Below the pieces are notes generated by a model, which saw only the letters and a program-made list of their open reading frames with translations, ran no database searches and was not told where the DNA came from. A stretch of 64,000 bases of DNA from an uncultured Clostridia bacterium (lineage in GTDB: Bacteria; Bacillota; Clostridia; Christensenellales; UBA1242), in NCBI GenBank assembly GCA_944372505.1, contig CALVZK010000002.1, forward strand, positions 44,692 to 108,691, in the 5' to 3' direction. The position numbers and the translations under genes are program-made. This document shows, one piece after another, positions 2,726 to 48,722 of this stretch (position 1 is the stretch's first letter; each line of letters starts with the position of its first letter).

Positions 2726-3097
2726 TTAAGATAATTTATTAATAATGGTTGCTTCTGCTTTTTCAAGTCTTCTAAAATAAGTTCTTAATGATAAATTTAA
2801 GTTATCTGCTATCGATTCGGCAGAAAAGTTTTTAATGTATTTTTGTATTAAAATTGCTCTAAATGTTTTATCAATATTTTTTAATATTTTATCCATTTTT
2901 ATTTTAAAATTTATTAATTTGTTTTTTCTTTCTATTAATTTAATAATTTTATTATAACTTTCCTCTGTTGTTATATAATTATTGATAGAATAATAATAAG
3001 AATTTAATGCTTCACTTAAAATTAACTTATCATAACTTTTGGTTAAACTATAACTATATTTATATGCTTTAAAAACATCTTCTATATTTAATTTCAT
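2726..3097 (-). CDS. Phage-type sigma-70 region-4-like HTH regulator (ArpU/RinA/DUF1492-like), paralogue A
   Basis: 123 aa. The C-terminal ILIQKYIKNFSAESIADNLNLSLRTYFRRLEKAEATIINKL resembles a region-4 HTH. Clear paralogue of the 6532..7041 product (shared LI.RK.KLIN.K, ILI.KYI, S.RTYFRRL). Confidence 0.45.
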   Translation of the reverse strand: MKLNIEDVFKAYKYSYSLTKSYDKLILSEALNSYYYSINNYITTEESYNKIIKLIERKNKLINFKIKMDKILKNIDKTFRAILIQKYIKNFSAESIADNLNLSLRTYFRRLEKAEATIINKLS

Positions 3098-3192: not shown

Positions 3193-3196
3193 CGCT

Positions 3197-3396: not shown

Positions 3397-3987
3397 TTAA
3401 AAACGATGAATATAACTTTGCACTATTCCTAATATTTGAATGTTTTCACTTATTATATCTTTATATTTTGGATTTTCAGGATGTAAATATATTTTGCTAC
3501 CATTCTTTTTTAATCTTTTAACAGTTGCGTTTTCTTCTATTAGTGCTACTACTATTTGACCATTCTCTGCTTCGGCTGATCGGCGTACAACTAAGATATC
3601 TCCATCTCTAATTCCGGCATTTTCCATACTGTCACCAATCGCTGTCAACATGAACAATTCGCCATTTCCAAATATTTCTTTAGGAAGAGAGCATATTGTT
3701 TGATAATTTTCTTGTGCGAAAATAGGGGTCCCGCAACGTACTTGTCCTACCAACGGGGCATATGTGGTAAGACTAAGGTTACAAGACATATCAATTCCGC
3801 CGAGAGGATTTTTTTTGACATGTCCTTGTTGCTCAAGTAAAGATATATAACGATTAACCTGTGATAAACTATTTAGATTTAATTTATCCTTGATACATCT
3901 AAAAGTTGGACTTTTTCCATTTTTAATTTGATAGTTATCAATGAATTCTTTTATTTGTAATAAAAGACTTTGGTTAATGTTTTTCAT
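3397..3987 (-). CDS. lexA: LexA repressor (S24 peptidase)
   Basis: 196 aa. N-terminal winged-helix pattern, AIGDSM (Ser nucleophile), ATVKRL (Lys), and linker PLVGQVRCGTPIFAQE where LexA normally has V-A-A-G. Confidence 0.85.
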   Translation of the reverse strand: MKNINQSLLLQIKEFIDNYQIKNGKSPTFRCIKDKLNLNSLSQVNRYISLLEQQGHVKKNPLGGIDMSCNLSLTTYAPLVGQVRCGTPIFAQENYQTICSLPKEIFGNGELFMLTAIGDSMENAGIRDGDILVVRRSAEAENGQIVVALIEENATVKRLKKNGSKIYLHPENPKYKDIISENIQILGIVQSYIHRF

Positions 3988-5836: not shown

Positions 5837-5847
5837 TATTTTAATTT

Positions 5848-6428: not shown

Positions 6429-6450
6429 TTTTGTAAAATATTTTACAAAA
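6429..6450. promoter_or_regulatory. 22-nt perfect palindrome, candidate operator
   Basis: TTTTGTAAAATATTTTACAAAA, about 25 nt upstream of a TTGACT-N18-TATAAT promoter (6476-6505) that precedes the 6532 gene. Confidence 0.35.
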
Positions 6451-6531
6451 ATATTCAAAATTGTGGCAGTATCATTTGACTGCATGCTTTTTATAATTTT
6501 ATAATTCGTGTATGTACAAAGGAGAAATTAT

Positions 6532-7041
6532 ATGAAAGAAAATTTTTGGTTCAAAACTATTTTATTTGTTTACAAGTATTTAGACAATCTTGCTGAGGCC
6601 ATTGATAATTTAGTTGAAAGACAGGCTTTAAACTCATTTTATTATTTTTCTGGTTCTAGTCAGGATAATTCAGTTATGGCTGTAAGCGATAGAATTATTA
6701 ATTTGATTGATAGGAAAAAAAAGTTAATTAATATAAAAGTTTTAGTAAGCAAATGTTTGCGTAAATGTGACAAAGAATTTGCTCAAATATTAATAGAAAA
6801 ATACATAGATAATGATAAAAGTGAAGATATTGCTTTAAGACATAATCTTTCTATGAGAACATATTTTAGAAGACTTATTCAGGCAGAAGAACAATTTGCT
6901 TCTAAAGCTTGTGAGTTAGGATTTAATGAATCTCGTCTTAACATTTTGCTAGCTAATGAAAAATGGATTAAGGAAGTATACAATTCTTTTTTAAATAAAA
7001 ATCTAAATTGTATCAATGAAAAGCAAAGTTTTGTTGCCTAA
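6532..7041 (+). CDS. Phage-type sigma-70 region-4-like HTH regulator, paralogue B
   Basis: 169 aa from the ATG with an AGGAG RBS. ILIEKYIDNDKSEDIALRHNLSMRTYFRRLIQAEEQF. Paralogue of the 2726..3097 product. Confidence 0.45.
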   Translation: MKENFWFKTILFVYKYLDNLAEAIDNLVERQALNSFYYFSGSSQDNSVMAVSDRIINLIDRKKKLINIKVLVSKCLRKCDKEFAQILIEKYIDNDKSEDIALRHNLSMRTYFRRLIQAEEQFASKACELGFNESRLNILLANEKWIKEVYNSFLNKNLNCINEKQSFVA

Positions 7042-7853
7042 TTTAAATCATTTTCGTCAAATTCAAAATAATCGCCATGTCTTTTTCTTTTTGATATTTT
7101 TGGTTTTTCGTTCAAAACTTTTTCTTTCATAAAAGAAGGTTTCATTAAAAGATAAAAGACTATTAAACATGGAAGGGTTACGCCTATTATAATAAATGTC
7201 ATTGCTACTGGTGACAAACTTGAGGGTATAGCTGATGGCGAAGTAAACGTTGGATTTGTTATTATCTCAAATGTTTCATAATTTGTTACTATTTCTGGAA
7301 GTAATAAATCGCAAAATACTGAAGACACATAACCATATATATCTTTTTCATCTGTATATTTACAATAATACCATATGTTAGACTTCTCTGGAACATATTC
7401 TCCGCCAGTTATCTCTCCATAAAATGTTATATTTTCAGTCAAGTATGGAATTGTTGTGATTTTATATTCATTTACGAATTTTGGATAATGATATATTCCT
7501 AACCCATCTGTTGAGTATACTCTAAATGAAGCTTCTGGAAATGGTTTTATTGGTGTACCATTCATGGCATTTACTTCATTTATTTTTACATATCCTTCTA
7601 AATCTTGATATTTTGCAGAATAAAATTCATCATCAATTTTATCTGTTAATATTACAAAATATGTTTTAGGAATTTCAAAAAGTTTATATTCATCTTGACT
7701 ATAGGGCAAAGAATAAAAATAAACATCATCTTGCTGTATTTTAGCATAATAAGTTTCTTTTGCTAAACTTGAAAAATTGTCATTAACACTTGCAAGAGAT
7801 ATTGCTGTAATAAATAATAATACCAACATGATTAATATTTTTAAATTTTTCAT
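7038..7853 (-). CDS. Exported, C-terminally membrane-anchored protein with two SH3b-like repeats
   Basis: Signal peptide MKNLKILIMLVLLFITAISLA. Two similar ~65-aa segments (..YFYSLP...EIPKTYFV...YSAKYQDLEGYV..; ..GIYHYP....IPYLT...WYYCKY...YGYV). TM segment MTFIIIGVTLPCLIVFYLLM. Confidence 0.4.
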   Translation of the reverse strand: MKNLKILIMLVLLFITAISLASVNDNFSSLAKETYYAKIQQDDVYFYSLPYSQDEYKLFEIPKTYFVILTDKIDDEFYSAKYQDLEGYVKINEVNAMNGTPIKPFPEASFRVYSTDGLGIYHYPKFVNEYKITTIPYLTENITFYGEITGGEYVPEKSNIWYYCKYTDEKDIYGYVSSVFCDLLLPEIVTNYETFEIITNPTFTSPSAIPSSLSPVAMTFIIIGVTLPCLIVFYLLMKPSFMKEKVLNEKPKISKRKRHGDYFEFDENDLN

Positions 7854-7938
7854 GTCTTCATTTTAAAATATAAAAATTTTTATGGTTAAAATTAAATTGT
7901 CGTAATTAGATTATTTAGGAGTTTTTTTAGCGAAAGTT

Positions 7939-9375
7939 ATGGAAGATATTACATATAAGTTAAATTTAGTAGAGAATGAAATTAAAAAAAGAAATGAAAA
8001 TGATTTTTTATCAAAGTACAATGTTGGCGACTTAATCCATAAAAAACAAATGGATTTTCATAGGTGTAACAAGAAAAATCGTTGGGTTTTTGGTGGAAAT
8101 AGAACAGGTAAAACTGAATGTGGAGCAGTCGAAACTGTTTGGCTTGCTAGAGGTATACATCCTTTTAAAAAAAATAAACCTATAAATTGTTGGGTTGTTT
8201 CCTTATCAAGACAAGTGCAACGAGACGTTGCTCAAAATAAAATTTTACATTATTTAAGAAAAGATTGGATAAAACAAATAGTTATGACCAGTGGCAGAGC
8301 GGATAGTGCTGAAGAGGGAATAATTGATTTTATTTTAGTAAAAAATGTTTTTGGAAGTATAAGTAAAATTGGTTTTAAAAGTTGTGACCAAGGGCGAGAA
8401 AAGTTTCAAGGTACGTCTTTGGATTTTGTTTGGTTTGATGAAGAGCCTCCTTATGATATTTACCAAGAGTGTCGTATGCGTGTGCTTGATAAAAAAGGAA
8501 TTATTTTTGGAACAATGACACCTTTGAAAGGATTAAGTTGGGTTTATAATGATATTTTTTTAAATAAAAATAGAGATAAAGAAATTTGGTATGAGCAAAT
8601 GGAATGGGCTGATAATCCTTTTTTAGATAAAGATGAAATTGAAGCAATGACAAAATCACTTTCTAACGAAGAATTAGAATCTAGAAGATATGGAAATTTT
8701 ATTGATAGCGGGGGGCTAGTTTATAGCGAATTCGACATTAATATTCATGTCATTGATCCTTTTGATGTTCCAAAAGAGTGGCAAGATATAATATCTATTG
8801 ATCCTGGCTTAAATAATCCTCTTTCTGCTCATTGGTATTGTCAAGATTATGATGGAAATATTTATGTAATTGCAGAGCATTTTGAAAAAGGTAAAGATGT
8901 TGCTTATCATGCTAAAAAGATAAAAGAAATATCGTCTATGCTTGACTGGCATTATACAAATGGGAAAATTGTTGCTCTTATAGATAGTGCAGCTTCTCAG
9001 CGTACTTTAGCAAGTAGCAAAAGTGTAGTAGAACTTTTTTATGATAATGATATCATAGTTAATCCAAAAGTTAATAAAGATATGTTTTCTGGGATTAATG
9101 TTGTTAAAAGATTTTTAAAAGATGGAGAAGGAAAACCTCACTTATTTATTTTTAAAAATTGCGTTAATTTAATTGAAGAATTTAAGTCTTATTGGTGGGG
9201 CGATGGAGATTTACCTATAAAAAAAGATGACCATTGTTTAGATGAAATGAGATATTACTTAATGACTAAGACACTTCCATTGATTTCATGTAAAACAAAA
9301 AAATCTGAAATTCAATTAGATAAAGAAAAATTAATAAAAAAATTAAATGATAGAAGAAGGAGATTTTATCCTTAA
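7939..9375 (+). CDS. terL: Phage terminase large subunit (orphan)
   Basis: Walker A FGGNRTGKTE, Walker B LDFVWFDEEPP, ADNPFL, nuclease-domain motifs ISIDPG, LIDSAA, DDHCLDEMRYY. Confidence 0.85.
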   Translation: MEDITYKLNLVENEIKKRNENDFLSKYNVGDLIHKKQMDFHRCNKKNRWVFGGNRTGKTECGAVETVWLARGIHPFKKNKPINCWVVSLSRQVQRDVAQNKILHYLRKDWIKQIVMTSGRADSAEEGIIDFILVKNVFGSISKIGFKSCDQGREKFQGTSLDFVWFDEEPPYDIYQECRMRVLDKKGIIFGTMTPLKGLSWVYNDIFLNKNRDKEIWYEQMEWADNPFLDKDEIEAMTKSLSNEELESRRYGNFIDSGGLVYSEFDINIHVIDPFDVPKEWQDIISIDPGLNNPLSAHWYCQDYDGNIYVIAEHFEKGKDVAYHAKKIKEISSMLDWHYTNGKIVALIDSAASQRTLASSKSVVELFYDNDIIVNPKVNKDMFSGINVVKRFLKDGEGKPHLFIFKNCVNLIEEFKSYWWGDGDLPIKKDDHCLDEMRYYLMTKTLPLISCKTKKSEIQLDKEKLIKKLNDRRRRFYP

Positions 9376-9475: not shown

Positions 9476-11761
9476 ATGAAGAAAATTATCTTTTCGATTT
9501 TAGCAATTGTTTTATTGTTTGGAGTTGGTATTACGACATCTGACTTTATATCTTTTGCTGAAGATGAATCTCAAGAACAAGTTATAAATGTTTATGATAC
9601 AGATGAATTTATTAGTATTTTTTCTAATGAAATGTATGAAAGTGAAAATTTAATTATAAAATTAAAAGAGGATTTAGATTTTTCCGGAATTGACTTATCT
9701 GACATATATAAGTCAAATAAAGTTTTTAAAGGGCAATTTGATGGTAATGGCCATATTATTTCTAATCTGACATTAACTTCGCAAAATAACTATTATGGGC
9801 TCATTCCACGTGCTAACGGAGCTGTAATTAAAGATTTAAAAGTCTGTGGAAATATTAATTTTCAATTGCAAGAAAATAATCAACAAAAATACATAGGTGT
9901 TTTAGTTGGTCAAGGAGAAAATGTAAAAATATACAATTGTGAATTTGATAATGTGAGTTTAGACGGACAAAATGTTGATAATATTAATTTAAATATTACT
10001 TCAAATATTGTTTTTGGTGGTATCATTGGTAGCGTAAAGTCTTCTATTTCTTCTTCAACACAACAAAGCATAATTAGTGATTGCGTCTTTTATTATGATT
10101 TGAATTTTAATTTTAAATATGATACTTTGGCTTATTTAGGAGGATTAGTAGGCGAACTACAAGCAGGAAGTAAAATTAAAAATTGTCTCAATTTTGGGGA
10201 TATTACTATAAATGAAGAAAATTCTTTAGTCTCTGTTTATAATTCTCAATTTGTAGGTGGTATTATAGGGGATGCTGTCTCTGCAAATTGTGTTAATAAT
10301 TGTTTTGCTGGTATCATAACAATTAATATTAATGTTCTTTCAAATTTATCTTTTGGGGCTATAATAGGGAATTTATCAAATACAAATTCATATTTATCTA
10401 GTTGTTATTGGACTCAAAGCGATTTAGCGGGGATTGGACAAGGAGAAAATGTAAATGATAATTTTAAATTAGTAAATGCTATTAATTCAGAATTTTTAAC
10501 AAACTATAATAATTTTGATATTATCGAATTGTCCTTTGATTTTGATACCATTTGGTGTTTAAGAAATAGTAAAATTTGTCTTCAAAGATTTCAATCTTTT
10601 AATTACTCAATAAATAAAATATTAGATAATGCAGGTATATTAAAGTCAGCAATTATTAAAACTAGTGAAGATGATGAAGGACAATTGAATAGTACGGTAA
10701 ATTATGGGGCTCCTTTAATAATCAGAATTGAATATAATGATCAATATATTGGATATTATACACTAGGCACAATTTATCTTCAAGGAGAAAGTTTAAATAA
10801 ATCTTATTATTCTTATCAACCTATTTTAGATGAAAAAAACAATGTTAAGGGTTATGATATTTATCTAACAGTTAATGATGTAACAGATGGAACATATAGT
10901 TTCTCTTTAGTGGCATCAAGTTATAAATGTTTAGTAAAAATATCTGACGAGGCTAAATTAAATTCACAGGGTGGAGTTAGTGCAGGTAGTAATTATATTG
11001 AATCTTTGAATATTGATTTCACTTATCAAACAAGAACTCAAGTTATTTCTGCCCAAGGAAATGGAATTTATACTTTTTCTTATTGGGAATTGTATTACAA
11101 GGCAGAAGATGATGCAGAAGGAGAGTATACAATATTAAATGAAGATTTTGAAGATGCTAATAGTAGTTCTTTATCTATAAGTTTTGGAGTGTCTCCTTAT
11201 AATCGAGAATTTATGTTAATAGCATATTTCTCTAGTGAAAATGCTATACTTGTTGATTTTACAAATTATCAAAATGAGGGAATTAAGAGTATTTCTCTTA
11301 ATGATAAAGTTTATGAAGGACAATCAATTGCAGTTTCAAATACTGATACAACTGTAAGAATTAAATTAATAACTAATTCATATTATTTGTTAAATGTGGA
11401 ACTATTTTTGCAAAGTGTTGCTGACCTTTATGGACAAAACATTGAAGATTTAGGTATTGTTCAAACTTCAGATCCTATAACAGACGAATTAACTCATGAA
11501 ACAACCTATAACTTTAGATTGAATATGAATACAATAAAAAATATAGAAGATAATCTTTTATCTATTTCTTTTGTGGTAGAAAAAGACAACACGCAATATA
11601 ATCAAAAAATGCTTTTTGTCTATATATTTGTTCCTATCGGTGTAGCAATAGTACTTGGGGTTGGCATTTATTTAATTATCAAATTTACTCGTGGCGGGAA
11701 AAAATCGTCTGCAAGAAAGGAAAAGAAAAAAGAAGATAATTACAAAGATTTTTATATTTAA
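9476..11761 (+). CDS. Large surface protein with GLUG-like repeats and C-terminal membrane anchor
   Basis: Signal peptide. FKGQFDGNGHIISNL followed by repeated G-[GL]-[IL]-[IV]-G segments (YIGVLVGQ, FGGIIGS, YLGGLVGE, FVGGIIGD, FGAIIGN). C-terminal TM plus basic tail. Confidence 0.55.
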   Translation: MKKIIFSILAIVLLFGVGITTSDFISFAEDESQEQVINVYDTDEFISIFSNEMYESENLIIKLKEDLDFSGIDLSDIYKSNKVFKGQFDGNGHIISNLTLTSQNNYYGLIPRANGAVIKDLKVCGNINFQLQENNQQKYIGVLVGQGENVKIYNCEFDNVSLDGQNVDNINLNITSNIVFGGIIGSVKSSISSSTQQSIISDCVFYYDLNFNFKYDTLAYLGGLVGELQAGSKIKNCLNFGDITINEENSLVSVYNSQFVGGIIGDAVSANCVNNCFAGIITININVLSNLSFGAIIGNLSNTNSYLSSCYWTQSDLAGIGQGENVNDNFKLVNAINSEFLTNYNNFDIIELSFDFDTIWCLRNSKICLQRFQSFNYSINKILDNAGILKSAIIKTSEDDEGQLNSTVNYGAPLIIRIEYNDQYIGYYTLGTIYLQGESLNKSYYSYQPILDEKNNVKGYDIYLTVNDVTDGTYSFSLVASSYKCLVKISDEAKLNSQGGVSAGSNYIESLNIDFTYQTRTQVISAQGNGIYTFSYWELYYKAEDDAEGEYTILNEDFEDANSSSLSISFGVSPYNREFMLIAYFSSENAILVDFTNYQNEGIKSISLNDKVYEGQSIAVSNTDTTVRIKLITNSYYLLNVELFLQSVADLYGQNIEDLGIVQTSDPITDELTHETTYNFRLNMNTIKNIEDNLLSISFVVEKDNTQYNQKMLFVYIFVPIGVAIVLGVGIYLIIKFTRGGKKSSARKEKKKEDNYKDFYI

Positions 11762-40977: not shown

Positions 40978-41068
40978 TTGTATGACCTCTACAATATCAG
41001 TTTAGCAAGTTAAAAGCGAATTGTTACATTTTTTATTTTTTTGGCAGTAATTATTGTTTTAATAAATT

Positions 41069-41401
41069 ATGAAAAGTAAAATTTACTCGAGGCTAAAAGG
41101 AGCAAGTCGAGTGAATGAAGAAGATAAGATTAAGAAAGCATTAATGAAAAAAGCACTTGGATATAATGCTGATGAATCAGTAGAAGAATATACTTTTGAT
41201 GAACATGGGCAGAAGATATTATCAAAGCAAAAAGTCACAAAAAAACATTATAGTCCCGATATTAGTGCTGTTAAAGTCTTACTAGAGAGATATTTTAAGA
41301 CTTACGAAGAACAATTACTTGATTTTTCAGATGAAGAACTTGAAGAAGAAAAAAAGCGACTTTTGAGTCTTTTAAAGGAGGATAAGGGTGGAAATTTTTG
41401 A
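41069..41401 (+). CDS. Terminase small subunit-like protein
   Basis: KKALGYNADESVEEYTFDE.G....KQKVTKKHYSPDISAVKVLLERY resembles small-terminase sequences of Firmicute phages. Position is before the portal. An alternative GTG start at 41111 has an AAGGAG RBS. Confidence 0.45.
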   Translation: MKSKIYSRLKGASRVNEEDKIKKALMKKALGYNADESVEEYTFDEHGQKILSKQKVTKKHYSPDISAVKVLLERYFKTYEEQLLDFSDEELEEEKKRLLSLLKEDKGGNF

Positions 41402-41612
41402 AGTAAAGCATTTAGTCAAATGCGATTTCAACGGCTGTAACAATTTAGCAAAATATAGTTTTTCTACAAAGGGTTTATTGAAAAAAGATCTTTGCTTTTG
41501 TGAAGATTGTTTAAGACAAATGTATGAAATTATTGCTAAAATGCAGAAGCCAAGATCTGTTTCTAGTCCATTCAGATTAAATAAAAGGATGAAAAAATAT
41601 GAAGAAAGATAA
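41388..41612 (+). CDS. Small Cys-containing (zinc-ribbon-like) protein in the slot where terL normally sits
   Basis: 74 aa with CDFNGC ... CFCEDC. Overlaps both neighbours by 14 nt. Confidence 0.5.
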   Translation: MEIFEVKHLVKCDFNGCNNLAKYSFSTKGLLKKDLCFCEDCLRQMYEIIAKMQKPRSVSSPFRLNKRMKKYEER

Positions 41613-43449
41613 TAACAAAATTGTTGAAGAAGTTTTAAAAGATTTTAAAGATAGAGCAGAAAAAAGAAAGAGTTTTGATCTTATCTGGCAAATTAACATG
41701 AATTTTTTGATGGGTAATCAATATTGCAATGTTGGATATGGTGGTCACCTCGAAGAAGCGGATCGTCAGTTTTTTTGGCAGGAACGCGAAGTTTATAATC
41801 ATATAGCGCCTACTTTTGATATTCGATATGCAAAATTATCAAAAATAAAGCCAGATATTAATGTTTTGCCTTCTACTAGTGATGAAAGGGATAAGCAATC
41901 TGCCAAGGTTTCAAAAAAAATTTATAAATACATTAAAAATAAATTAAAAATTGATAGTTTGGTAAATCAAGCAATCAAGTGGTCAGAAGTTTGCGGAACT
42001 GTGTTTTATAAAATCAGTTGGAATAGTGATATTGGACAAATTATAGGGATTGATGAAAGTGGTTCGAAAATAAAAAGTGGCGATGTTGAAATTAGCGTTG
42101 TCAGCCCATTTGAAATTTATCCTGATAGTAGTGTATGTGATAGTTTAAAAGCTTGTCAAAGCCTAATTCATGCAAAAGCATATACAACGGCTCAAGTTAA
42201 GCAAATGTATGGTGTTGAAGTAGAAGGGAAAAAAGTTAATACATATGCTTTAGACAGTGTAGCTGAGGGTGTTGGAGGACTCGGACTTACTGGTACTATG
42301 CCGAAAATAATTGAGAGCGTAAAAGATGACAGTGTTATTGTTGTGGAAAGATATATTCGACCTAATGCAGACTATTTAAATGGTAGATTAACAATTGTAG
42401 CTGGAGATAAATTGGTATTTGATGGAGATTTACCTTATCAATGCGGTGAAGATGGAGATAGAGATTTTCCTTTTATTAGACAAACTAGTATTGAAGAACC
42501 GGGGAGTTTTTGGGGAAGTAGTGTAGTTGAAAGACTAATACCAGTTCAAAGAGCATATAACGCTGTAAAAAACAGAAAACATGAATTTTTGAATAGACTT
42601 TCTTTGGGAGTGTTAAGTGTAGAAGATGGCTCTGTTGATTTAGATAATCTTGAAGAAGAAGGATTATGCCCTGGGAAAGTTTTAGTTTATAGACAAGGGG
42701 CAAATGAACCTAAATATTTAGAAGGAGAAAATATCCCGTCGGGATTAAATGAAGAAGAACAATTCTTGCTTGATGAATTCAATAAAATTAGTGGAGTAAA
42801 TGATTTATTAAGTTTTAGTTCTCTATCGTCAAATTTAAGTGGAACTGCTCTTGAACTAATGATATCTCAAGATGAAGCAAGATTAAATGCTCCTATTGAA
42901 AGTATTAAATGTGCAGTTAAAGATATTGCAAGTATGATTTTAAGATTATATAAACAATACGCATCGTTTCCTAGAATTGCTAAAATTGTGGGAGAAAATG
43001 GGGAAGTTGAAATGTTCTATTTCTCTTCAAATGATATTTCTAGCGAAGATATTGAACTTGAAAATATTACTGATGGGATGCAAAGTCTTTCTCAACGTAG
43101 AGATTTAATTTTTTCTTTATTAGAAAACGGAATACTTCAAAATGAAGACGGTAATTTATCTAATAGAATGAAAAGCAAAATATTAGAAATGCTTGGTATG
43201 GGGATTTGGGAGAATGCTCAAGATATTACAGATCTTCATATAAAGAAAGCAGATAAAGAAAATTTAAAATTGTTAAAAAATGAAAATGTTTCAGTTAGCG
43301 AAATTGATGAACATAAATTACACTTAAATGAACATATTGCTTTTATGCTTGGTCAAGATTATGAAAAAGCATGCAAAGATAATAAATCTTTAGAAGAAAA
43401 GTTTTTAGCACATATTCGTGAGCACAAATCAAAATTGGAGGATAAATAA
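41599..43449 (+). CDS. Putative portal protein
   Basis: 616 aa with no P-loop. Lies between the small-terminase-like and scaffold/capsid genes. Assignment rests on size and position. Confidence 0.6.
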   Translation: MKKDNNKIVEEVLKDFKDRAEKRKSFDLIWQINMNFLMGNQYCNVGYGGHLEEADRQFFWQEREVYNHIAPTFDIRYAKLSKIKPDINVLPSTSDERDKQSAKVSKKIYKYIKNKLKIDSLVNQAIKWSEVCGTVFYKISWNSDIGQIIGIDESGSKIKSGDVEISVVSPFEIYPDSSVCDSLKACQSLIHAKAYTTAQVKQMYGVEVEGKKVNTYALDSVAEGVGGLGLTGTMPKIIESVKDDSVIVVERYIRPNADYLNGRLTIVAGDKLVFDGDLPYQCGEDGDRDFPFIRQTSIEEPGSFWGSSVVERLIPVQRAYNAVKNRKHEFLNRLSLGVLSVEDGSVDLDNLEEEGLCPGKVLVYRQGANEPKYLEGENIPSGLNEEEQFLLDEFNKISGVNDLLSFSSLSSNLSGTALELMISQDEARLNAPIESIKCAVKDIASMILRLYKQYASFPRIAKIVGENGEVEMFYFSSNDISSEDIELENITDGMQSLSQRRDLIFSLLENGILQNEDGNLSNRMKSKILEMLGMGIWENAQDITDLHIKKADKENLKLLKNENVSVSEIDEHKLHLNEHIAFMLGQDYEKACKDNKSLEEKFLAHIREHKSKLEDK

Positions 43450-43451
43450 AT

Positions 43452-44138
43452 ATGGAAGAAATAAGAGAACAACCGACCATGGAACCGGCAAATGCTTTAA
43501 ACCTAGCAGAAATAGACAGTGTCGAGAGTGAGGTCGGCTCTCAAGGCGAATTTGGCAAATTCAAAAATGCAGATGCATTGTTAGAGGCCTATAACAATTT
43601 GCAGGCTGAATTTACCAGAAAGTGCCAACTGCTAAGTAATTTGCAAAAAGATAAGATGCAAGAGGAAAAATTTAGCGAAAGAGAAAATGACACATCAAAT
43701 TTCAATAATATTAATGAATTGGAAGGTGTTAATAAAAATGAAGTTTTAGATGAATCTAATAATAGTGAAATTAGCGAGAAAAATTTTGAAGAAAGCCTAC
43801 AAGCATTCCTTGATGCAAATGCCGATGCAAAAGAATTTGCAAATGAAATTAAAAATGAGTTTTCTAATGCAAAAACAAGCCCATTTGAAGATGCTTGGGC
43901 TAAGGTTGTTTTTTCTCAATTAAAGGAAGGCAAACTTAGTGACAATATGATTAATCAATATTTAATTAGTGATGAAAATATTAAAAATAAAGTTATAGAA
44001 TCATATTTAAAGAATCTTCAAAACAATAAACCACCTTTGATAATATCTTCCAGCGGGGAAAGGCTGTCACAAGTAAAACCAGACAGTCCTAAAACCCTTG
44101 CTGAAGCAAAACAAATAGTGGATAAAATGTTTAGTTAA
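43452..44138 (+). CDS. Putative scaffolding protein
   Basis: 228 aa, acidic, predicted helical. The GKFKNADALLEAYNNLQAEFTRK segment is common in phage scaffold proteins. Directly upstream of the capsid gene. Confidence 0.55.
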   Translation: MEEIREQPTMEPANALNLAEIDSVESEVGSQGEFGKFKNADALLEAYNNLQAEFTRKCQLLSNLQKDKMQEEKFSERENDTSNFNNINELEGVNKNEVLDESNNSEISEKNFEESLQAFLDANADAKEFANEIKNEFSNAKTSPFEDAWAKVVFSQLKEGKLSDNMINQYLISDENIKNKVIESYLKNLQNNKPPLIISSSGERLSQVKPDSPKTLAEAKQIVDKMFS

Positions 44139-44487: not shown

Positions 44488-45702
44488 ATGGTTACATTAC
44501 AAACAGCTGAAAATGCTTTAAAAACAGTTTATTTAGGCGTAGTTGCTAATCAACTTAATGATAATGCAAATCCTCTTCTTGCTAGAATTAAAAAAACTAG
44601 TAAAGATGTTTGGGGAAAAGAAATTAGAAAACTTGCTCCATTTGGCATAAACGGTGGAATAGGAGCAGGAAGCGAAACTGCAGCTTTGCCTATTGCTTCT
44701 GAAAATAGTTATGTACAATTCGTTGCAGATCTTAAAAACCTTTATGGTAAAATTGAAATTTCTGACAAAGCTATTAGAGCTTCTGCAAATAATATCGGGG
44801 CTTTTGTTAATCTTCTTTCTGATGAAATGGAAGGTCTTGTTAAAGCAAGTTCATTTAATCTTGGAAGAATGCTATATGGAGATGGTAGTGGTGTTTTAGC
44901 CACTGTTAATGCGCATCAAAACAAAACTATTACTTGTGATAAAGTAAATAATCTTATCGAAGGTATGCTTGTAGATATTTATAATGGTGCTACAAAAGCA
45001 AATAACTATCCAGTTAAAATAGTTTATGTTGATAGAGTAAACAAAAAATTCACTTATTCATCTTCAGAGACATTAGTTTTAAATAGTGGATTTAAAGTTT
45101 ATCTTCAAGGATCAAAAGGAAGTGAAATTTCTGGATTAGGGAAAATTTTTGATTCTTCTGCTACCAGTATTTATGGAGTTAGCAAAAGTGATTATCCTTG
45201 GTTAAATCCATATGTTAATAGTACTCAAAAAGAAATTAGTGATATTGTTATTCAAGAAGCCATTGATTTTCTTGATATGAATGTTGATTCGAAAATTAAC
45301 TTTATTACTTGTTCAAGCCAAGTAAGGAGAGTTTATCAAGAATATTTAGGAGCTTATAGAAGAAATATAGAAATTGCTTCTTTAGAGGGTGGATATAAAA
45401 CTATAACTCACAATGGAATACCTGTTGTTGCAGATAGATTTGTAGATGATGATACAATGTATTTGCTTAATACAGATGACTTTGTTTTACATCAACTTTG
45501 CGATTGGAAATGGTTAGAGGGAGAAAATGGTCAAATTTTAAGACAAAATCCAGGCTATCCAACTTATAGTGCAACACTAGTTAAATACGCAGAATTGATT
45601 TGTGATAAACCATGTGGACAAGCAAAGATTAGTGGTATCAAAGCAACAGTAACGAATCCATTTACAACAGTTGTTGAGACTACCGTAGAGGAAACAGCGT
45701 AA
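44488..45702 (+). CDS. Putative major capsid protein
   Basis: 404 aa, follows the scaffold gene, strong RBS, dedicated terminator downstream. No motif-level proof. Confidence 0.6.
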   Translation: MVTLQTAENALKTVYLGVVANQLNDNANPLLARIKKTSKDVWGKEIRKLAPFGINGGIGAGSETAALPIASENSYVQFVADLKNLYGKIEISDKAIRASANNIGAFVNLLSDEMEGLVKASSFNLGRMLYGDGSGVLATVNAHQNKTITCDKVNNLIEGMLVDIYNGATKANNYPVKIVYVDRVNKKFTYSSSETLVLNSGFKVYLQGSKGSEISGLGKIFDSSATSIYGVSKSDYPWLNPYVNSTQKEISDIVIQEAIDFLDMNVDSKINFITCSSQVRRVYQEYLGAYRRNIEIASLEGGYKTITHNGIPVVADRFVDDDTMYLLNTDDFVLHQLCDWKWLEGENGQILRQNPGYPTYSATLVKYAELICDKPCGQAKISGIKATVTNPFTTVVETTVEETA

Positions 45703-45767: not shown

Positions 45768-46079
45768 ATGAGATATTTAGAGATAACTGAAGATGTATAT
45801 TTGATAGGAAAAAGATTAAAAGAAATTGATAGAAGTTACATCATTTTATACAATCTTGATAAAAAGTCTTACGAAGTACATTCTCAAGGAAGAGGTAAAG
45901 GAAGTTATTGTTTTACAGTGCCATATGATATATTAGATGCTCGAACAATAACATATGCACGAAAAACAAGTGTAGAGAGAAGGGATAAAATAATAGAGGA
46001 GATTGAAATTAACAACCAAAAACTTTACGAAAGATCAATTAAAGAGCAAGTAAATAAGATAAAGGAGGCACTATGCTAG
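45768..46079 (+). CDS. Hypothetical phage-module protein
   Basis: 103-aa ORF with a GGAGG RBS. Confidence 0.6.
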   Translation: MRYLEITEDVYLIGKRLKEIDRSYIILYNLDKKSYEVHSQGRGKGSYCFTVPYDILDARTITYARKTSVERRDKIIEEIEINNQKLYERSIKEQVNKIKEALC

Positions 46080-46621
46080 TAAAAGACATAATAAAGTTAG
46101 CATGTGAATTCATAGGGTTAGAAACGGTTAAAGCGGGGATCGAGAGTAATAACTTAACCGAAGAGGATGAATTAGTTTGTGATAGTCTAGTTAACTTATT
46201 TAATCTTATCAACGACGAGATAACTAGCGAGTATATACCAATTTATCGTAAAGAGAGAGTAAAGTGCAACGATTTTAAAGTAAATTACTCATCATTAAAA
46301 GAGGAGCCATTACAAATCATATCAGTAAAAGATATATGTGGACGGAAGATAAGATTCAAAGCGTTTGAGGATCACATTGTAGCGATAGCAAGCATGGTAG
46401 AGATAATTTATACAGTTAAATCAGAAAGATTAGAAATAGACGACGAAATTAGTTCCAGTTTACCAGAGAGGGTATATGCATATGGAATAGTAAGGGAATA
46501 TTATTTTTTACAAACAATGTTTGATGATGCAGATGTGTGGGAGGAGCGCTTTAAGAATAGTTTGCAAGTATTACAGAGGAGGAAAAGCGAGACGACAATG
46601 GCTCGAAGGAGGTGGCTTTAA
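46073..46621 (+). CDS. Hypothetical protein, possibly head-tail connector/adaptor
   Basis: 182 aa. Position after the capsid gene. GGAGG RBS. Overlaps its neighbours. Confidence 0.35.
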   Translation: MLVKDIIKLACEFIGLETVKAGIESNNLTEEDELVCDSLVNLFNLINDEITSEYIPIYRKERVKCNDFKVNYSSLKEEPLQIISVKDICGRKIRFKAFEDHIVAIASMVEIIYTVKSERLEIDDEISSSLPERVYAYGIVREYYFLQTMFDDADVWEERFKNSLQVLQRRKSETTMARRRWL

Positions 46622-48102
46622 TGTTTTATAGAAACACCTTAAAAACGAAAAAGACGAAAGAGAAAGAGATAAAGATAAACATATTCGAGAAAGGCTTAAC
46701 AGACAAAGATGGGTTTATAAGTGAAAATGGAGAAGGGCAAGAGAGTTACAACTTTGATATGAACAGCGGGGCATTAAAATCGGGATATGGATTTAGCAAA
46801 TTAATGTTGCCTTCAACAACAGAGGACCTCGAGAGTGAAAGCGAGTTAAGTATAAGAGGGAACGAGATAAAATCATTATGGAAATTAAAATGGTATAATT
46901 TCAATACAGACGAGAACAATTATTATTTATTTTACTATAATGATGAAGGAAATGTATGTTATGACAATTTATTTGGGCAAAGGCTTGCGACATTTATAGT
47001 ACCAAATGATTTCAGTGAAGTACCATATGCAACGTATTATAGAACGGGGCAGCAAGATACATTGTTATTATCTGGCGAGGGAGATGATTTAGTAATTATT
47101 ACAGGTAACGGAGTGCAAAGAAATGCAAGTGCGCCGAAAATTGTTTCATGTTGTAATCATTATGGAAGATTATTTGCCATAACCTCATCAGAGCGAGGGA
47201 CACTAGTTTATAGTGAAGATACGGACATATTAAATTTTACCGATGAATTATGTAAAGATTTAGATTTCAGTGACGAACGCGGAGATTTAAACAAAATTTT
47301 ATCTTTTAACGATTATTTATATTTATTTAGAGACTTTGGAATTACAGAAGTTTCGCAATATGGAACCGATGACAATTTTGCTATAAGTCATTTATATATG
47401 TCTAATAGTTATATATATCCAAATACAATAGCCCAATGTGGAGACGACATAATATTTTTAGATAGCAGTGGATTAAAAGTATTTAATGGTTCATCAGTAA
47501 AAGAAATAGAAAGTGTTTACAATGCAAAGATAAGCAAAAAAAATCAAAAATATGCTTGGGGAGAATACTATAACGGAAAATATTTTTTATCATGTAAAAT
47601 AGATTTTGCAGATAATAGACAAATCGGGTGTGAAAAGAACTCTACAGGTTATATAAATAATGTTCTGTTAGTATATGATATATCAAAGAAAAGTTTCGAG
47701 ATAGTAAGAGGTATAGATATAAATAGATTACTGACTTTAAACAATCCTCACAAGAGTAAACTTGTGGCTTGCTTTAACAACGAGCATAAAGATAAAATTG
47801 GACAACTTAACGAAGACGGAAAAATATTTGGAGAGCAACTTGAAAAATATTGGCGAAGCACAAATAGCGATTTTGGTTATAGTGGAAAAGTTAAAAGGAT
47901 ACGATCGTTTACCATAAAGACAAGCGGTGCATGCAAAGTAACTTTTGAGAGCGAGAATATGATAAAAGAGATATCTGTCAAAGGCAAGGAAGGAGTACAA
48001 AGAATAAACACAAATATCATAGGGAAAGAGTTTATTGTAACGATAGAAAGTTTAGGAGATGCTTTTATAAGTAACTTTGTTTTAAATGTAGGAGTTTGCT
48101 AA
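46621..48102 (+). CDS. Large structural protein of unknown role (beta-rich)
   Basis: 493 aa from the ATG at 46621 (AAGGAGG RBS 8 nt upstream, TAATG overlap with the previous stop). Repetitive beta-strand-like segments. Confidence 0.55.
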   Translation: MFYRNTLKTKKTKEKEIKINIFEKGLTDKDGFISENGEGQESYNFDMNSGALKSGYGFSKLMLPSTTEDLESESELSIRGNEIKSLWKLKWYNFNTDENNYYLFYYNDEGNVCYDNLFGQRLATFIVPNDFSEVPYATYYRTGQQDTLLLSGEGDDLVIITGNGVQRNASAPKIVSCCNHYGRLFAITSSERGTLVYSEDTDILNFTDELCKDLDFSDERGDLNKILSFNDYLYLFRDFGITEVSQYGTDDNFAISHLYMSNSYIYPNTIAQCGDDIIFLDSSGLKVFNGSSVKEIESVYNAKISKKNQKYAWGEYYNGKYFLSCKIDFADNRQIGCEKNSTGYINNVLLVYDISKKSFEIVRGIDINRLLTLNNPHKSKLVACFNNEHKDKIGQLNEDGKIFGEQLEKYWRSTNSDFGYSGKVKRIRSFTIKTSGACKVTFESENMIKEISVKGKEGVQRINTNIIGKEFIVTIESLGDAFISNFVLNVGVC

Positions 48103-48211: not shown

Positions 48212-48442
48212 ATGGATTTTTGGAACGAACTGATTAAAATAATAGTTTCTTATGGAATATTTGCAATGTTGTTTGTATTTCTGTTTTTTTATCAACTAAA
48301 GGATAGTTCAAAAAGAGAAGAAGCGTATAGACAAACAATAGAAGAATTAACTTCACATTTAGAAACTTTAAACGAAGTAAGAGATGAAGTTAGCGAATTA
48401 AAAGAAATTGTGTCTAGGAGGGATAATGAAAAATCGAATTAA
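48212..48442 (+). CDS. BhlA/UviB-family holin-like protein
   Basis: 76 aa. One N-terminal TM (YGIFAMLFVFLFFYQL) followed by K.SSKREE and a coiled-coil tail, as in BhlA/UviB. Confidence 0.6.
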   Translation: MDFWNELIKIIVSYGIFAMLFVFLFFYQLKDSSKREEAYRQTIEELTSHLETLNEVRDEVSELKEIVSRRDNEKSN

Positions 48443-48722
48443 GTCTTATAGTTTTTGGACAGCCTTATCTGGGGCAGTAGTAATTTTCTTGAACGCACTA
48501 GGTGAATTGTTTGGTTTTTCCGTGCAAGATGAACTTGTATCAGGGATAATTATGGCAGTTGCAGGAATTTTGGTGGTATTCGGAATTGTAACAATGCCAA
48601 ATGACAATCAAAATAGCGAAGAAGAAATTGAAGAAGACACGGAAGAAAATGTTACTCAAGTTACAAAAGAAGAAGATTCACGACAAGAGGAAAGCAAAGA
48701 GGAAGATAGCGATAAAAATTAG
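48426..48722 (+). CDS. Holin (phi LC3-like, two TM) with acidic tail
   Basis: MKNRIKSYSFWTALSGAVVIFLNALGELFG ... IIMAVAGILVVFGIV, then an E/D-rich C-terminus. Confidence 0.6.
   Translation: MKNRIKSYSFWTALSGAVVIFLNALGELFGFSVQDELVSGIIMAVAGILVVFGIVTMPNDNQNSEEEIEEDTEENVTQVTKEEDSRQEESKEEDSDKN

What the first reader, a model, noticed from the sequence alone, without database searches (positions are those of the whole stretch)
7939..9375. Orphan large terminase 32 kb from its cognate head module, next to a phage late-regulator paralogue
Seen in sequence. This is an intact 478-aa TerL (Walker A FGGNRTGKT, Walker B VWFDEEP, nuclease motifs IDPG, IDSAA and DDHCLDEMRYY) with no neighbouring terS, portal or capsid gene. 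Upstream lie a sigma-region-4-like regulator (6532-7041) and an oppositely oriented SH3b-like membrane protein. Downstream lies a 761-aa surface protein. The head module at 41-48.7 kb lacks exactly this gene. Established knowledge: ArpU/RinA-type regulators normally sit immediately upstream of terS-terL in Firmicute phages, and dispersal of packaging, head and lysis genes over several loci is a hallmark of domesticated elements such as RcGTA. Inference: one functional system may be split over at least three loci: the lexA-linked regulator locus, the regulator-terL locus, and the head-holin locus.
Basis: partly seen in the sequence, partly recalled or inferred. Interest (0 to 1): 0.6.

Follow-up and report, generated by a model that had tools for sequence, protein, structure and literature searches.

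The report
Split-off terminase of a domesticated phage
The lone DNA-packaging gene belongs to a small phage-derived particle-making gene cluster that gut Clostridia inherit as part of their chromosome; in this lineage one rearrangement moved it away from the capsid genes, and the cluster looks like a gene transfer agent, though that is untested.

Summary
An intact 478-aa large terminase (TerL, 7939-9375) lies among housekeeping genes. It is 31.7 kb from a cluster encoding portal, scaffold, capsid, adaptor, tail nozzle and two holins (41.07-48.72 kb) that has no terL.

Comparison across 80 species-level genomes shows they are one system. In 40 Christensenellales-type MAGs the same genes are contiguous: regulator, SH3b membrane protein (opposite strand), TerL, small terS-like gene, portal through to holins. 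Five genomes have a 2.8-5 kb insertion after TerL. In 23 genomes TerL is orphaned as it is here, and these form one clade in the TerL tree.

The element has no integrase or replication genes. It keeps fixed chromosomal neighbours and diverges in step with them. It is under purifying selection as strong as on lepA (dN/dS 0.07 against 0.06). No isolated phage reaches 30% identity.

A canonical LexA box lies upstream of the regulator in 18 of 49 relatives, and in the window's clade lexA itself is adjacent.

Best reading: the packaging motor of a domesticated, probably SOS-linked, podovirus-derived GTA-like element whose operon was split once. Particle production and DNA transfer are untested. The closest described system is FpGTA of Faecalibacterium.

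The parts
7939..9375 (+). TerL, the large terminase (packaging ATPase plus nuclease). It is intact and is the finding itself.
   Evidence: Terminase_6N and Terminase_6C and phrog_2. Catalytic motifs are invariant among orthologues. dN/dS median is 0.07. It lies directly upstream of the portal in 40 related genomes.
6532..7041 (+). Reg1, a sigma-region-4 / DUF1492-like regulator, conserved upstream of TerL in split, intermediate and many unsplit genomes.
   Evidence: phrog_36 and phrog_248. Weak ArpU/RinA hits below cut-off. The L076 orthologue hits Sigma70_r4_2 and DUF1492. Synteny.
6432..6505 (+). Reg1 promoter region: perfect palindrome TGTAAAATATTTTACA (6432-6447), TGGCAGTA (6464-6471), -35 TTGACT (6476-6481) and -10 TATAAT (6500-6505). 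A TGTCGTA motif lies at 6422-6428.
   Evidence: This is the best sigma-70-like site of the region, 11 of 12. The palindrome occurs once in the window against 0.09 expected. The whole architecture is conserved across the clade.
7038..7853 (-). 271-aa membrane protein with a signal peptide, SH3b-like repeats and a C-terminal transmembrane segment. It is transcribed divergently from TerL and is a conserved partner in all three arrangements.
   Evidence: Synteny. The L076 orthologue hits SH3_3 at 28.9 bits, above cut-off.
7898..7904 (+). TGTCGTA motif 41 nt before the TerL start. In relatives it is part of a conserved GCAAR-N8-TGTCGWA element. Candidate site for regulator-dependent transcription; this is inference.
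   Evidence: Position conserved 40-56 nt upstream of TerL in nearly all loci of the split clade. There are 7 matches in the window against 2.3 expected.
9476..11761 (+). 761-aa membrane-anchored surface protein. It is a passenger gene inserted after TerL and is absent from the unsplit operons.
   Evidence: No family hit. It lies between TerL and the terS-like gene in L043-L045 and is absent in the 40 unsplit loci.
3397..3987 (-). lexA, a bona fide SOS repressor, with the palindrome AGAACACTGTGTTCT (4002-4016) just upstream of its start.
   Evidence: TIGR00498 at 141 bits against a cut-off of 111. Sequence. A GAAC-N5-GTTC box lies about 30 nt (100 nt in L020) upstream of lexA in all 10 split-clade loci that hold lexA.
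2726..3097 (-). Reg2, a lineage-specific paralogue of Reg1 placed downstream of lexA. A second GAAC-N5-GTTC box (3181-3193) lies 84 nt before its start.
   Evidence: 46% identity to Reg1, E 1e-26. DUF1492 and Sigma70_r4_2. Box. No separate Reg2 was found in the other loci.
41069..41401 (+). Small terS-like protein. The ORF as listed is 110 aa. The probable true start is GTG 41111, after AAAGGAG at 41095-41101. In unsplit genomes this gene follows TerL directly.
   Evidence: phrog_309 terS is hit by 18 of 21 family members, best E 1.5e-8. Gene order. Start inferred from orthologues.
41018..41068 (+). Conserved upstream region of the head operon: TGTTAC ... TGGCAGTA (41042-41049), overlapping a -35-like hexamer.
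   Evidence: Conserved in the window, L117, L118 and L119, with correlated changes on both arms (TTAC/GTAA against TGAC/GTCA). A weak sigma-70-like site TTGGCA-16-TAAATT is found there.
41388..41612 (+). 74-aa Cys-rich (zinc-ribbon-like) protein between the terS-like gene and the portal. Function unknown.
   Evidence: ORF. Orthologues occupy the same position.
41599..43449 (+). Portal protein of the P22/SU10 type.
   Evidence: P22_portal 5.8e-19. phrog_156 2.9e-37. dN/dS 0.086.
43452..44138 (+). Putative scaffolding protein, assigned by position and acidic helical composition.
   Evidence: Lies between portal and capsid genes. Conserved in all arrangements. No family hit.
44488..45702 (+). Major capsid protein of the podovirus type.
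   Evidence: NF033394 capsid_maj_Podo at 260 bits against a cut-off of 80. phrog_14242 6e-49. dN/dS 0.098.
45768..46079 (+). 103-aa conserved protein of unknown role.
   Evidence: Conserved position.
46073..46621 (+). Head-tail adaptor candidate.
   Evidence: Weak SU10_adaptor hit, below cut-off. Position lies between the capsid and nozzle genes.
46612..48102 (+). Tail nozzle/hub protein, P22 gp10-like and T7 gp12-like.
   Evidence: AF2 model with pLDDT 88, pTM 0.88. Foldseek against PDB: Pa223 tail E 1.5e-19, TM 0.74, followed by tail complexes of VP1, GP4, P22, SU10 and T7. BFVD matches are named 'P22 Gp10'.
48212..48722 (+). Two overlapping holin genes (48212-48442 and 48408-48722).
   Evidence: Orthologues carry Holin_BhlA and a weak Phage_holin_1 hit. 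holin_phiLC3 hit is weak.

Best explanation
TerL at 7939-9375 is the DNA-packaging motor of a small (about 12 kb), chromosomally fixed, podovirus-derived particle gene set. Its parts are a regulator, an SH3b membrane protein, TerL, a terS-like protein, portal, scaffold, capsid, adaptor, nozzle and two holins. The set is inherited vertically across a large group of gut Clostridia (Christensenellales-type MAGs). In the ancestor of the window's clade, a surface-protein gene was inserted after terL and a chromosomal rearrangement then cut the operon between that gene and the terS-like gene. As a result terL stayed with the regulator and lexA, while the structural and lysis genes ended up next to an ABC transporter.

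Proposed working, all of it inferred. DNA damage inactivates LexA. The sigma-region-4-like regulator(s) are then expressed and switch on terL and the head-holin operon from separate promoters. Procapsids assemble on the portal. TerL, together with the short terS-like protein, packages DNA by a headful-type mechanism. Adaptor and nozzle close the particle, and the holins release it. Because the element has no replication, integration or excision genes, the packaged DNA would be host DNA. That would make it a gene transfer agent in the manner of FpGTA or RcGTA.
For: Shown:
- TerL is intact.
- The gene set occurs contiguous in 40 of 80 species loci, with a 2.8-5 kb gap in 5, and with TerL orphaned in 23.
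- The orphans form a single clade in an NJ TerL tree: 26 orphans plus 6 undetermined loci, and no unsplit locus.
- Both loci occur on one 242-kb scaffold of another genome, 184 kb apart.
- The head locus sits at the same chromosomal junction (ABC transporter/rsmE) in 5 split-clade genomes.
- The TerL block sits at the same junction (DegV, Spo0A_C, lexA on one side; NMT1, rsmD, lepA on the other).
- No integrase or replication genes flank the unsplit element in L076; the neighbours there are a gyrA/parC-like gene, a deacetylase and SSB.
- TerL identity tracks the flanking core genes: r=0.86 with NMT1 (n=20) and r=0.93 with GDPD (n=12).
- dN/dS is 0.07 for TerL, 0.086 for portal and 0.098 for the capsid protein, against 0.062 for lepA.
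- The best isolated-phage TerL is at most 29.5% identical.
- Portal relatives in IMG/VR number 25, are at most 52% identical, and all lie on contigs of 13 kb or less.
- TerL, portal and capsid protein share the same nearest isolated phages, the Jasminevirus group. That group has the same gene order.
- The 496-aa protein folds as a podovirus nozzle.
- A LexA box lies upstream of the regulator in 18 of 49 loci, against about 0.4 expected. The lexA gene is genuine and adjacent.

From the literature:
- A podovirus-like GTA with two dispersed operons exists in Faecalibacterium.
- GTA-like packaging of about 4-7 kb fragments was seen in Christensenellaceae MAGs, with no locus identified (PMC12946183).
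Against: - There are no expression, particle or packaged-DNA data for this organism.
- No endolysin, tail fibre or receptor-binding protein was found in either locus. Two genes present in some unsplit operons (a 374-aa protein and DUF7934) are absent from the window. The particle may therefore be incomplete, or further loci may exist outside the window.
- The promoters of terL and of the head operon are each conserved but are not evidently the same, so co-regulation is not shown.
- The canonical LexA box of the relatives lies in a divergent intergenic region. It could serve the neighbouring large SH3 membrane-protein gene instead.
- The window's clade has no canonical N4 box. It has only GAAC-N5-GTTC palindromes, at lexA and at Reg2.
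- The terS assignment rests on a partial PHROG match.
- Whole-genome co-occurrence was seen directly in only two genomes.
Confidence: 0.72

Rival explanations
1. A domesticated particle system with a function other than gene transfer. Examples would be SOS-triggered altruistic lysis with release of DNA or cytoplasmic goods, a decoy or anti-phage role, or a capsid used for delivery to other species. TerL would still be its packaging enzyme.
For: The same evidence supports domestication. No tail fibre or receptor-binding protein and no endolysin were identified. Two holins and a LexA link point to a damage-induced lysis programme.
Against: An intact terminase, portal and nozzle under strong purifying selection imply that DNA is packaged and can leave through a tail channel. 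GTA-like packaging has been observed in related gut families (PMC12946183).
Confidence: 0.17
2. An active mobile element, either a small prophage or a capsid-forming satellite (cf-PICI-like). Its genes happen to lie in two places, and it excises, replicates and packages itself.
For: The cluster encodes a near-complete podovirus head and short tail plus lysis genes. Geneticists' tools flag relatives as viral in IMG/VR. A tRNA-Leu with two tandem partial copies lies 260 bp from the regulator gene.
Against: No integrase, excisionase, replication or lysogeny genes occur in or beside the element in the window or in L076. The chromosomal junctions are fixed, and divergence tracks the host genes over 60-85% protein identity. 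A self-packaging element could not survive having terL 32-184 kb from its head genes. All IMG/VR relatives are fragments of 13 kb or less.
Confidence: 0.04
3. Unrelated prophage debris. The TerL gene and the head module would be leftovers of different phages and have no functional connection.
For: They are 31.7 kb apart, separated by housekeeping genes, with no shared obvious promoter.
Against: They are adjacent in 40 related genomes. They share their nearest isolated phages. Every ORF is intact, and dN/dS is 0.07-0.10, comparable to lepA. Debris would decay.
Confidence: 0.02

Closest known systems
FpGTA of Faecalibacterium prausnitzii (Nat Commun 2026, PMC12946183)
   Same: It occurs in gut Clostridia. 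It is a podovirus-type small gene set of about 10.5 kb: terS lacking an obvious DNA-binding domain, terL, portal, scaffold and capsid protein, plus short-tail proteins. Holin genes are part of the system. It is chromosomal, conserved across species, and dispersed over two loci about 125 kb apart.
   Different: In FpGTA, terL stays in the head operon and the second locus holds tail fibre, receptor-binding and lysis genes. Here terL itself, with the regulator, is the separated part, and the holins stay with the head genes. Here the terS-like gene lies after terL. A LexA link is seen here and is not reported there. Sequence homology to FpGTA proteins could not be tested because no Faecalibacterium sequence was reachable. 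FpGTA particles and their roughly 8.5-9 kb DNA are shown experimentally; nothing has been shown for this element.
RcGTA of Rhodobacter capsulatus (Alphaproteobacteria; own knowledge and the introduction of PMC12946183)
   Same: It is a domesticated phage head, packaging and lysis system. It is vertically inherited, encoded at several chromosomal loci, has a terS without a DNA-binding domain, and is under host regulation.
   Different: RcGTA is siphovirus-like with an HK97-type head-tail cluster in which terL remains. Its regulation runs through CtrA, quorum sensing and GafA, not LexA. The lineage and ancestry are unrelated.
PBSX-type defective prophages of Bacillus (own knowledge)
   Same: Firmicute host, SOS-inducible, packages host DNA, and cannot propagate itself.
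   Different: PBSX is a contiguous myovirus-like prophage of about 28 kb with its own repressor. It acts mainly as a killing particle. The TerL hit to the PBSX terminase family is far below cut-off (35.6 bits against 105).
Jasminevirus podophages of Arthrobacter (Brad, Adat, Jasmine), Microbacterium phage Shocker, Cellulosimicrobium phage DS1
   Same: They are the nearest isolated phages for TerL, portal and capsid protein alike. The gene order is the same: terminase, small genes, portal, scaffold-like gene, capsid protein.
   Different: Identity is only 23-29%. They have full 45-kb genomes with replication, lysin and tail genes, and they infect actinobacterial hosts.

Membership tests
Large terminase (TerL), Terminase_6 / T4-P22-like group | N-terminal ASCE ATPase with Walker A and Walker B motifs | tested here: met
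   Terminase_6N at 61 bits against a cut-off of 22. GGNRTGKT and DFVWFDEEP are invariant among orthologues.
Large terminase (TerL), Terminase_6 / T4-P22-like group | C-terminal RNase-H-like nuclease with conserved acidic residues | tested here: met
   Terminase_6C at 26.8 bits against a cut-off of 22.6. D288, D349 and D430-D431 are invariant. There is a weak match to the P22 nuclease domain 4dkw.
Gene transfer agent (GTA) | Phage-derived structural and packaging genes fixed in the host chromosome and inherited vertically under purifying selection | tested here: met
   Synteny and junctions are conserved. Divergence tracks the host genes. dN/dS is 0.07-0.10.
Gene transfer agent (GTA) | No genes for autonomous replication, integration or excision | tested here: met
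   None was found in the window's two loci and their flanks, nor around the unsplit element in L076. Only one unsplit locus was examined in this detail.
Gene transfer agent (GTA) | Particles package essentially random host DNA in pieces too small to carry the whole gene set | not testable with these tools
   This needs sequencing of particle DNA. The only indirect support is GTA-like packaging of about 4-7 kb fragments reported for Christensenellaceae MAGs, without a locus.
Gene transfer agent (GTA) | Particles deliver DNA to recipient cells | not testable with these tools
   No tail fibre or receptor-binding protein was identified. Adaptor and nozzle are present.
FpGTA family (Faecalibacterium) | Sequence homology of TerL, portal and capsid protein to the FpGTA I proteins (e.g. 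RCH50849.1, RCH50851.1) | not tested
Only the architecture was compared. Distant contiguous relatives exist in Oscillospiraceae and Eubacteriales MAGs (L012 and L067; TerL 52% and 42%).
ArpU/RinA late-transcription regulators | Match to TIGR01637 or TIGR01636 above cut-off | tested here: not met
   18.8 bits against a cut-off of 43.1, and 16.5 against 31.9. The protein belongs to the wider sigma-region-4 / DUF1492-like group.
ArpU/RinA late-transcription regulators | Position immediately upstream of the packaging genes | tested here: met
   Reg1 lies one gene upstream of TerL in split, intermediate and many unsplit loci.
SOS (LexA) regulon member | LexA operator at the promoter of the regulator or the element | tested here: inconclusive
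   A canonical GAAC-N4-GTTC box is present in 18 of 49 relatives at a fixed distance from TerL, but it lies in a divergent intergenic region. In the window only GAAC-N5-GTTC palindromes occur, at lexA and at Reg2. None occurs at Reg1, TerL or the head promoter.
Prophage / PICI-type satellite | Integrase, att sites and a replication module; variable presence among strains | tested here: not met
   See the replication/integration row under GTA. The element is fixed at conserved junctions.

The most novel reading that the evidence does not exclude
This gene set would be an order-wide, LexA-wired, podovirus-type gene transfer agent of gut Christensenellales and related Clostridia. It would be the unidentified genetic basis of the GTA-like packaging reported for Christensenellaceae MAGs. 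The window's clade would be a natural experiment: the packaging motor gene has been physically uncoupled from the capsid operon yet is kept under housekeeping-level constraint. That implies trans-acting co-ordination of two loci by the duplicated sigma-region-4-like regulators.
Probability: 0.4. Interest if true: 0.75.

Novelty: new member of a known kind. Interest (0 to 1): 0.6.

Why it matters
GTAs are well characterised almost only in Alphaproteobacteria. The first gut example, FpGTA, was published in 2026, and that study saw GTA-like packaging in Christensenellaceae without finding the genes.

The element described here is a concrete and widespread candidate. Among the best 80 species-level loci it occurs in three evolutionary stages.

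It offers testable predictions: SOS induction, a podovirus-like particle, and small packaged fragments. It also offers a clean natural case for asking how a domesticated phage keeps working after its operon is broken.

For annotation, it shows that an 'orphan terminase' in these genomes is a conserved host gene rather than prophage debris.

Tried and rejected
1. Pairing TerL and portal by NCBI accession neighbourhood using listing of cluster members. Too few accessions were returned.
2. Matching contig lengths between the TerL and portal hit lists. Only one shared contig was found, the 242,099-bp scaffold.
3. Looking for a single promoter motif common to the regulator, terL and head promoters. 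TGTCGTA occurs 7 times in the window against 2.3 expected, and TGGCAGTA 3 times against 1.1. Each promoter is well conserved among orthologues, but the three are not demonstrably alike, so I make no co-regulation claim.
4. Searching the window for canonical LexA boxes. Matches are at chance level.
5. Sequence search of TerL and of the terS-like family against PDB. Only marginal hits were found.
6. Testing whether the 761-aa protein is related to the large SH3 membrane protein that flanks unsplit elements. It is not.
7. IMG/VR as a source of complete phage relatives. Only short fragments of at most 52% identity were found.
8. Homology to FpGTA. Not possible, because no Faecalibacterium sequence was available.
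9. The first dN/dS script timed out. It was redone with one alignment per gene.
10. The second structure-prediction slot and the metagenome scan were not used.
Full report
**1. The observation**

The ORF at 7939-9375(+) encodes 478 aa. It matches Terminase_6N (1.5e-16) and Terminase_6C (5.8e-6), both above Pfam's cut-offs, and PHROG phrog_2 'terminase large subunit' at 4e-37. They are invariant in an alignment with four orthologues of 72-76% identity.

The window has about 28% G+C. Between terL and the phage-like module at 41-48.7 kb lie ordinary core genes: an NMT1-family binding protein, rsmD, GDPD, lepA, hemN, ffh, rimM, trmD, rbgA, hrcA-grpE-dnaK-dnaJ, rsmE and an ABC transporter.

The module at 41-48.7 kb contains the following genes:
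- a small terS-like gene (41069-41401);
- a 74-aa Cys-rich ORF;
- a P22/SU10-type portal;
- a scaffold-like protein;
- a podovirus-type major capsid protein (NF033394, 260 bits against a cut-off of 80);
- a 103-aa protein;
- an adaptor candidate;
- a 496-aa protein;
- two holins.

It has no terL.

**2. The neighbours of terL**

The upstream regulator most likely starts at ATG 6532, after an AAAGGAG ribosome-binding site. It hits PHROG transcriptional regulator/activator families. It matches ArpU/RinA only weakly and below threshold. Its orthologue in L076 reaches the Sigma70_r4_2 cut-off and also hits DUF1492.

It is 46% identical (E 1e-26) to the 123-aa DUF1492 / sigma-region-4 protein at 2726-3097, which lies next to lexA. 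That lexA is genuine: TIGR00498 at 141 bits against a cut-off of 111.

The 271-aa protein on the opposite strand has a signal peptide and a C-terminal membrane anchor. Its L076 orthologue passes the SH3_3 cut-off. The 761-aa protein after terL has a signal peptide and a C-terminal anchor, and matches no family.

**3. Relatives: this is a host-fixed element**

TerL has thousands of database relatives. The best 120 cluster representatives are all 74-100% identical, and many lie on contigs of 100-390 kb from Clostridia MAGs. The portal shows the same pattern.

In genomes with 76-79% TerL identity, the block regulator / membrane protein (opposite strand) / TerL / large surface protein sits in the same chromosomal context as in the window. 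DegV, a stand-alone Spo0A C-terminal domain protein and lexA lie on one side; NMT1, rsmD, GDPD, lepA and hemN lie on the other.

In five genomes of this clade the head-holin locus sits at one and the same junction, next to the ABC transporter and rsmE, with identical internal order and never with a terL.

One 242,099-bp scaffold carries both loci. TerL is at about 201,970 and the portal at about 15,950, so they are 184 kb apart there, against 31.7 kb in the window.

**4. The decisive comparison**

I scanned one genome per GTDB species with an alignment of concatenated TerL+portal sequences. I then mapped 35 window proteins onto every locus.

| Arrangement among the 80 best loci | Loci | TerL identity to window |
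|---|---|---|
| TerL and portal within 1.2 kb of each other (unsplit) | 40 | 42-68% |
| As above, but contig ends just after the terS-like gene | 2 | 64-65% |
| Gap of 2.8-5.0 kb between TerL and portal (intermediate) | 5 | 65-68% |
| At least 4 kb of sequence after TerL with no portal (orphan) | 23 | 66-84% |
| Contig too short to tell | 10 | 64-79% |

The unsplit loci come from MAGs labelled Christensenellaceae, Christensenella, Candidatus Scatosoma and Clostridia.

The unsplit order is: regulator, SH3b membrane protein (opposite strand), TerL, terS-like gene, (Cys-rich ORF), portal, scaffold, capsid protein, 103-aa protein, adaptor, 496-aa protein, (one or two extra genes), two holins.

In three of the five intermediate loci (L043-L045, including Christensenella sp. 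UBA5893), the gap holds a homologue of the 761-aa surface protein. That is exactly the gene that follows TerL in the window.

In a neighbour-joining tree of TerL, the 26 orphan TerLs fall in one clade. The clade otherwise contains only 6 loci too short to classify, and no unsplit or intermediate locus.

The simplest history is a contiguous operon, then insertion of a surface-protein gene after terL, then a single rearrangement that separated terL from the rest. Deep branches of the NJ tree are not reliable, so the placement of the intermediate genomes as direct ancestors is plausible but not proved. The head module's 'missing' gene is therefore this terL.

**5. Domestication rather than a prophage**

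- Around the unsplit element in L076 the neighbours are a gyrA/parC-like gene, a polysaccharide deacetylase, an SSB-domain protein and membrane proteins. There is no integrase, replication or lysogeny module. Neither locus in the window has one either.
- Across genomes, TerL identity to the window tracks that of the adjacent core genes: r=0.86 with NMT1 (n=20) and r=0.93 with GDPD (n=12). TerL is more conserved (mean 75%) than NMT1 (65%), DegV (68%) or RsmD (58%), and less conserved only than LepA (85%).
- Nei-Gojobori dN/dS for pairs with dS below 2 has a median of 0.07 for TerL (16 pairs), 0.086 for portal, 0.098 for the capsid protein and 0.062 for lepA. Many dS values are near saturation, so these are rough figures. 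The conclusion of strong constraint is safe.
- The best TerL among 50,697 isolated phage genomes is 29.5% identical.
- IMG/VR holds only 25 portal relatives, all at most 52% identical and all on contigs of 13 kb or less. That is what an island of about 12 kb would yield when flagged as 'viral'.
- TerL, portal and capsid protein have the same nearest isolated phages: the Arthrobacter Jasminevirus group, Microbacterium phage Shocker and Cellulosimicrobium phage DS1, at 23-29% identity. In phage Brad the order is terminase, two small genes, portal, one gene, capsid protein.

**6. What the particle would look like**

The 496-aa protein was modelled with a 43-sequence alignment (pLDDT 88, pTM 0.88). 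It matches the tail nozzle/hub proteins of podoviruses: Pa223 (E 1.5e-19, TM 0.74), then VP1, GP4, the P22 tail complex, SU10 and T7 gp12. In BFVD it matches proteins named 'P22 Gp10'.

With portal, adaptor candidate and nozzle, the module therefore encodes a head plus a short tail stub, not a head only.

The small gene after TerL belongs to a family in which 18 of 21 members hit PHROG phrog_309 'terminase small subunit'. The match covers only about 50 positions of a 319-position profile. This is compatible with a shortened TerS lacking a DNA-binding domain, as reported for RcGTA and FpGTA. That reading is inference.

No endolysin, tail fibre or receptor-binding protein was found. Two genes present in some unsplit operons, a 374-aa protein and a DUF7934 coiled-coil protein, are absent from the window.

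**7. Regulation**

In relatives with 60-72% TerL identity, 18 of 49 loci have an exact GAAC-N4-GTTC box 1.2-1.8 kb upstream of TerL, in the intergenic region before the regulator. The box is mostly GAACAAATGTTC or GAACATATGTTC, the classical Gram-positive LexA operator. Only 14 further boxes occur in the remaining 941 kb, so about 0.4 loci would be expected by chance. That region is shared with a divergently transcribed large SH3 membrane-protein gene, so the target gene is not certain.

In the window's clade lexA itself is the upstream neighbour. A GAAC-N5-GTTC palindrome precedes lexA in all ten loci that include it. In the window it is AGAACACTGTGTTCT at 4002-4016. A second N5 box lies 84 nt before the paralogous regulator at 2726-3097. 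No canonical N4 box exceeds chance in the window.

The regulator's own promoter is strikingly conserved. It comprises a perfect palindrome TGTAAAATATTTTACA (unique in the window; 0.09 expected), TGGCAGTA, TTGACT, an 18-nt spacer and TATAAT.

TerL is preceded by a conserved GCAAR-N8-TGTCGWA element with no sigma-70-like promoter.

The head operon is preceded by TGT(T/G)AC ... TGGCAGT(A/C), with correlated changes on the two arms.

The motifs TGTCGWA (regulator and terL) and TGGCAGT (regulator and head operon) recur. Their statistics in the window are modest, so I do not claim a common promoter.

Compared with sister genomes, the window has metG and tRNA-Leu inserted between lexA and the regulator, the lexA segment inverted, and an extra regulator paralogue.

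**8. Interpretation**

Shown: terL is the cognate terminase of the 41-kb module. The whole is a vertically inherited, selectively maintained, podovirus-derived gene set without mobility genes. The split is a single ancestral event in this clade.

Inferred: the set makes DNA-filled particles upon DNA damage and releases them by holin-mediated lysis, packaging host DNA. That would make it a GTA-like element.

The closest described system is FpGTA of Faecalibacterium. It is podovirus-like, has two operons 125 kb apart, and packages fragments of 8.4-8.9 kb. The same paper reports GTA-like packaging in the Christensenellaceae genera HGM11616 and QANA01, with read-length peaks near 4.1, 6.3 and 7.1 kb, and names no locus (PMC12946183).

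I could not test sequence homology to FpGTA, nor whether those two genera carry this element. No paper describing this element was found in the searchable library.

**9. Verdict**

It is a new member of a known kind: GTA-like domesticated phage elements. Three features are of interest: an order-wide distribution in gut Clostridia, a LexA connection, and a natural operon split that isolates the packaging motor gene. Interest is 0.6. The value lies mainly in giving a concrete, testable candidate for GTA activity in Christensenellales.

Noticed in passing
window 5846-6274: tRNA-Leu(CAA) at 6189-6274(-) is preceded by a 170-bp tandem repeat (2.3 copies, 99% identical). Each unit starts with the 3' 46 nt of the tRNA and ends with a copy of its anticodon-arm sequence. 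It may be left over from repeated integration at the tRNA, or it may be a tRNA-derived repeat. It lies between metG and the regulator, at the spot where the window differs from sister genomes.
   Followed up: partly
L010 10001-11464 and L011 (ENA ERZ27245261 k141_1505934; JGI 3300000114): A second, independent orphan TerL, 49% identical to the window's. It lies in a high-G+C genome between tilS and ackA, preceded by two small overlapping ORFs (139 and 152 aa). No portal or capsid gene lies within 10 kb. Orphan terminases in chromosomal contexts may therefore be more widespread.
   Followed up: no
window 2315-2701: A stand-alone Spo0A C-terminal DNA-binding domain protein (128 aa, no receiver domain) is syntenic with lexA and the regulator-TerL block across the split clade. 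Whether it takes part in control of the element is unknown.
   Followed up: no
window 52908-55972; L117 15409-17845: comEC-holA lies just downstream of the head-holin locus, directly after the holins in L117. RcGTA recipients need ComEC for DNA uptake (own knowledge). The adjacency may be coincidental, because comEC-holA is a common housekeeping pair.
   Followed up: no
window 7854-7880 and orthologous positions: Immediately upstream of the start codon of the 271-aa membrane protein (minus strand), a TAAAAT hexamer ends about 6 nt before the ATG and there is no Shine-Dalgarno sequence. This is conserved across the clade as CAT-N6-ATTTTAA on the plus strand. It suggests a leaderless mRNA.
   Followed up: no
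L076 18165-20305; also L043, L044, L054, L081 and others: Some unsplit and intermediate operons carry one or two extra genes between the nozzle and the holins: a 374-aa protein with no hits and a coiled-coil DUF7934 protein. Both are missing from the window and from the other split-clade head loci. They have either been lost or moved to a further locus.
   Followed up: partly
window 3110-3200: Between lexA and the paralogous regulator, the GAAC-N5-GTTC box at 3181-3193 is also the 3' arm of an 8-bp inverted repeat (AACCCAGC ... GCTGGGTT) with a loop of about 30 nt. The box sequence GAACC(T/C)AGCGTTC recurs downstream of lexA in five other genomes. Whether it is an operator or an RNA hairpin is unresolved.
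   Followed up: partly
protein hits P0244, P0286, P0305, P0316, P0329, P0330: Several TerL relatives at 35-52% identity are about 780-900 aa long. The terminase occupies the C-terminal half, and an N-terminal extension of about 330-480 aa of unknown nature precedes it.
   Followed up: no
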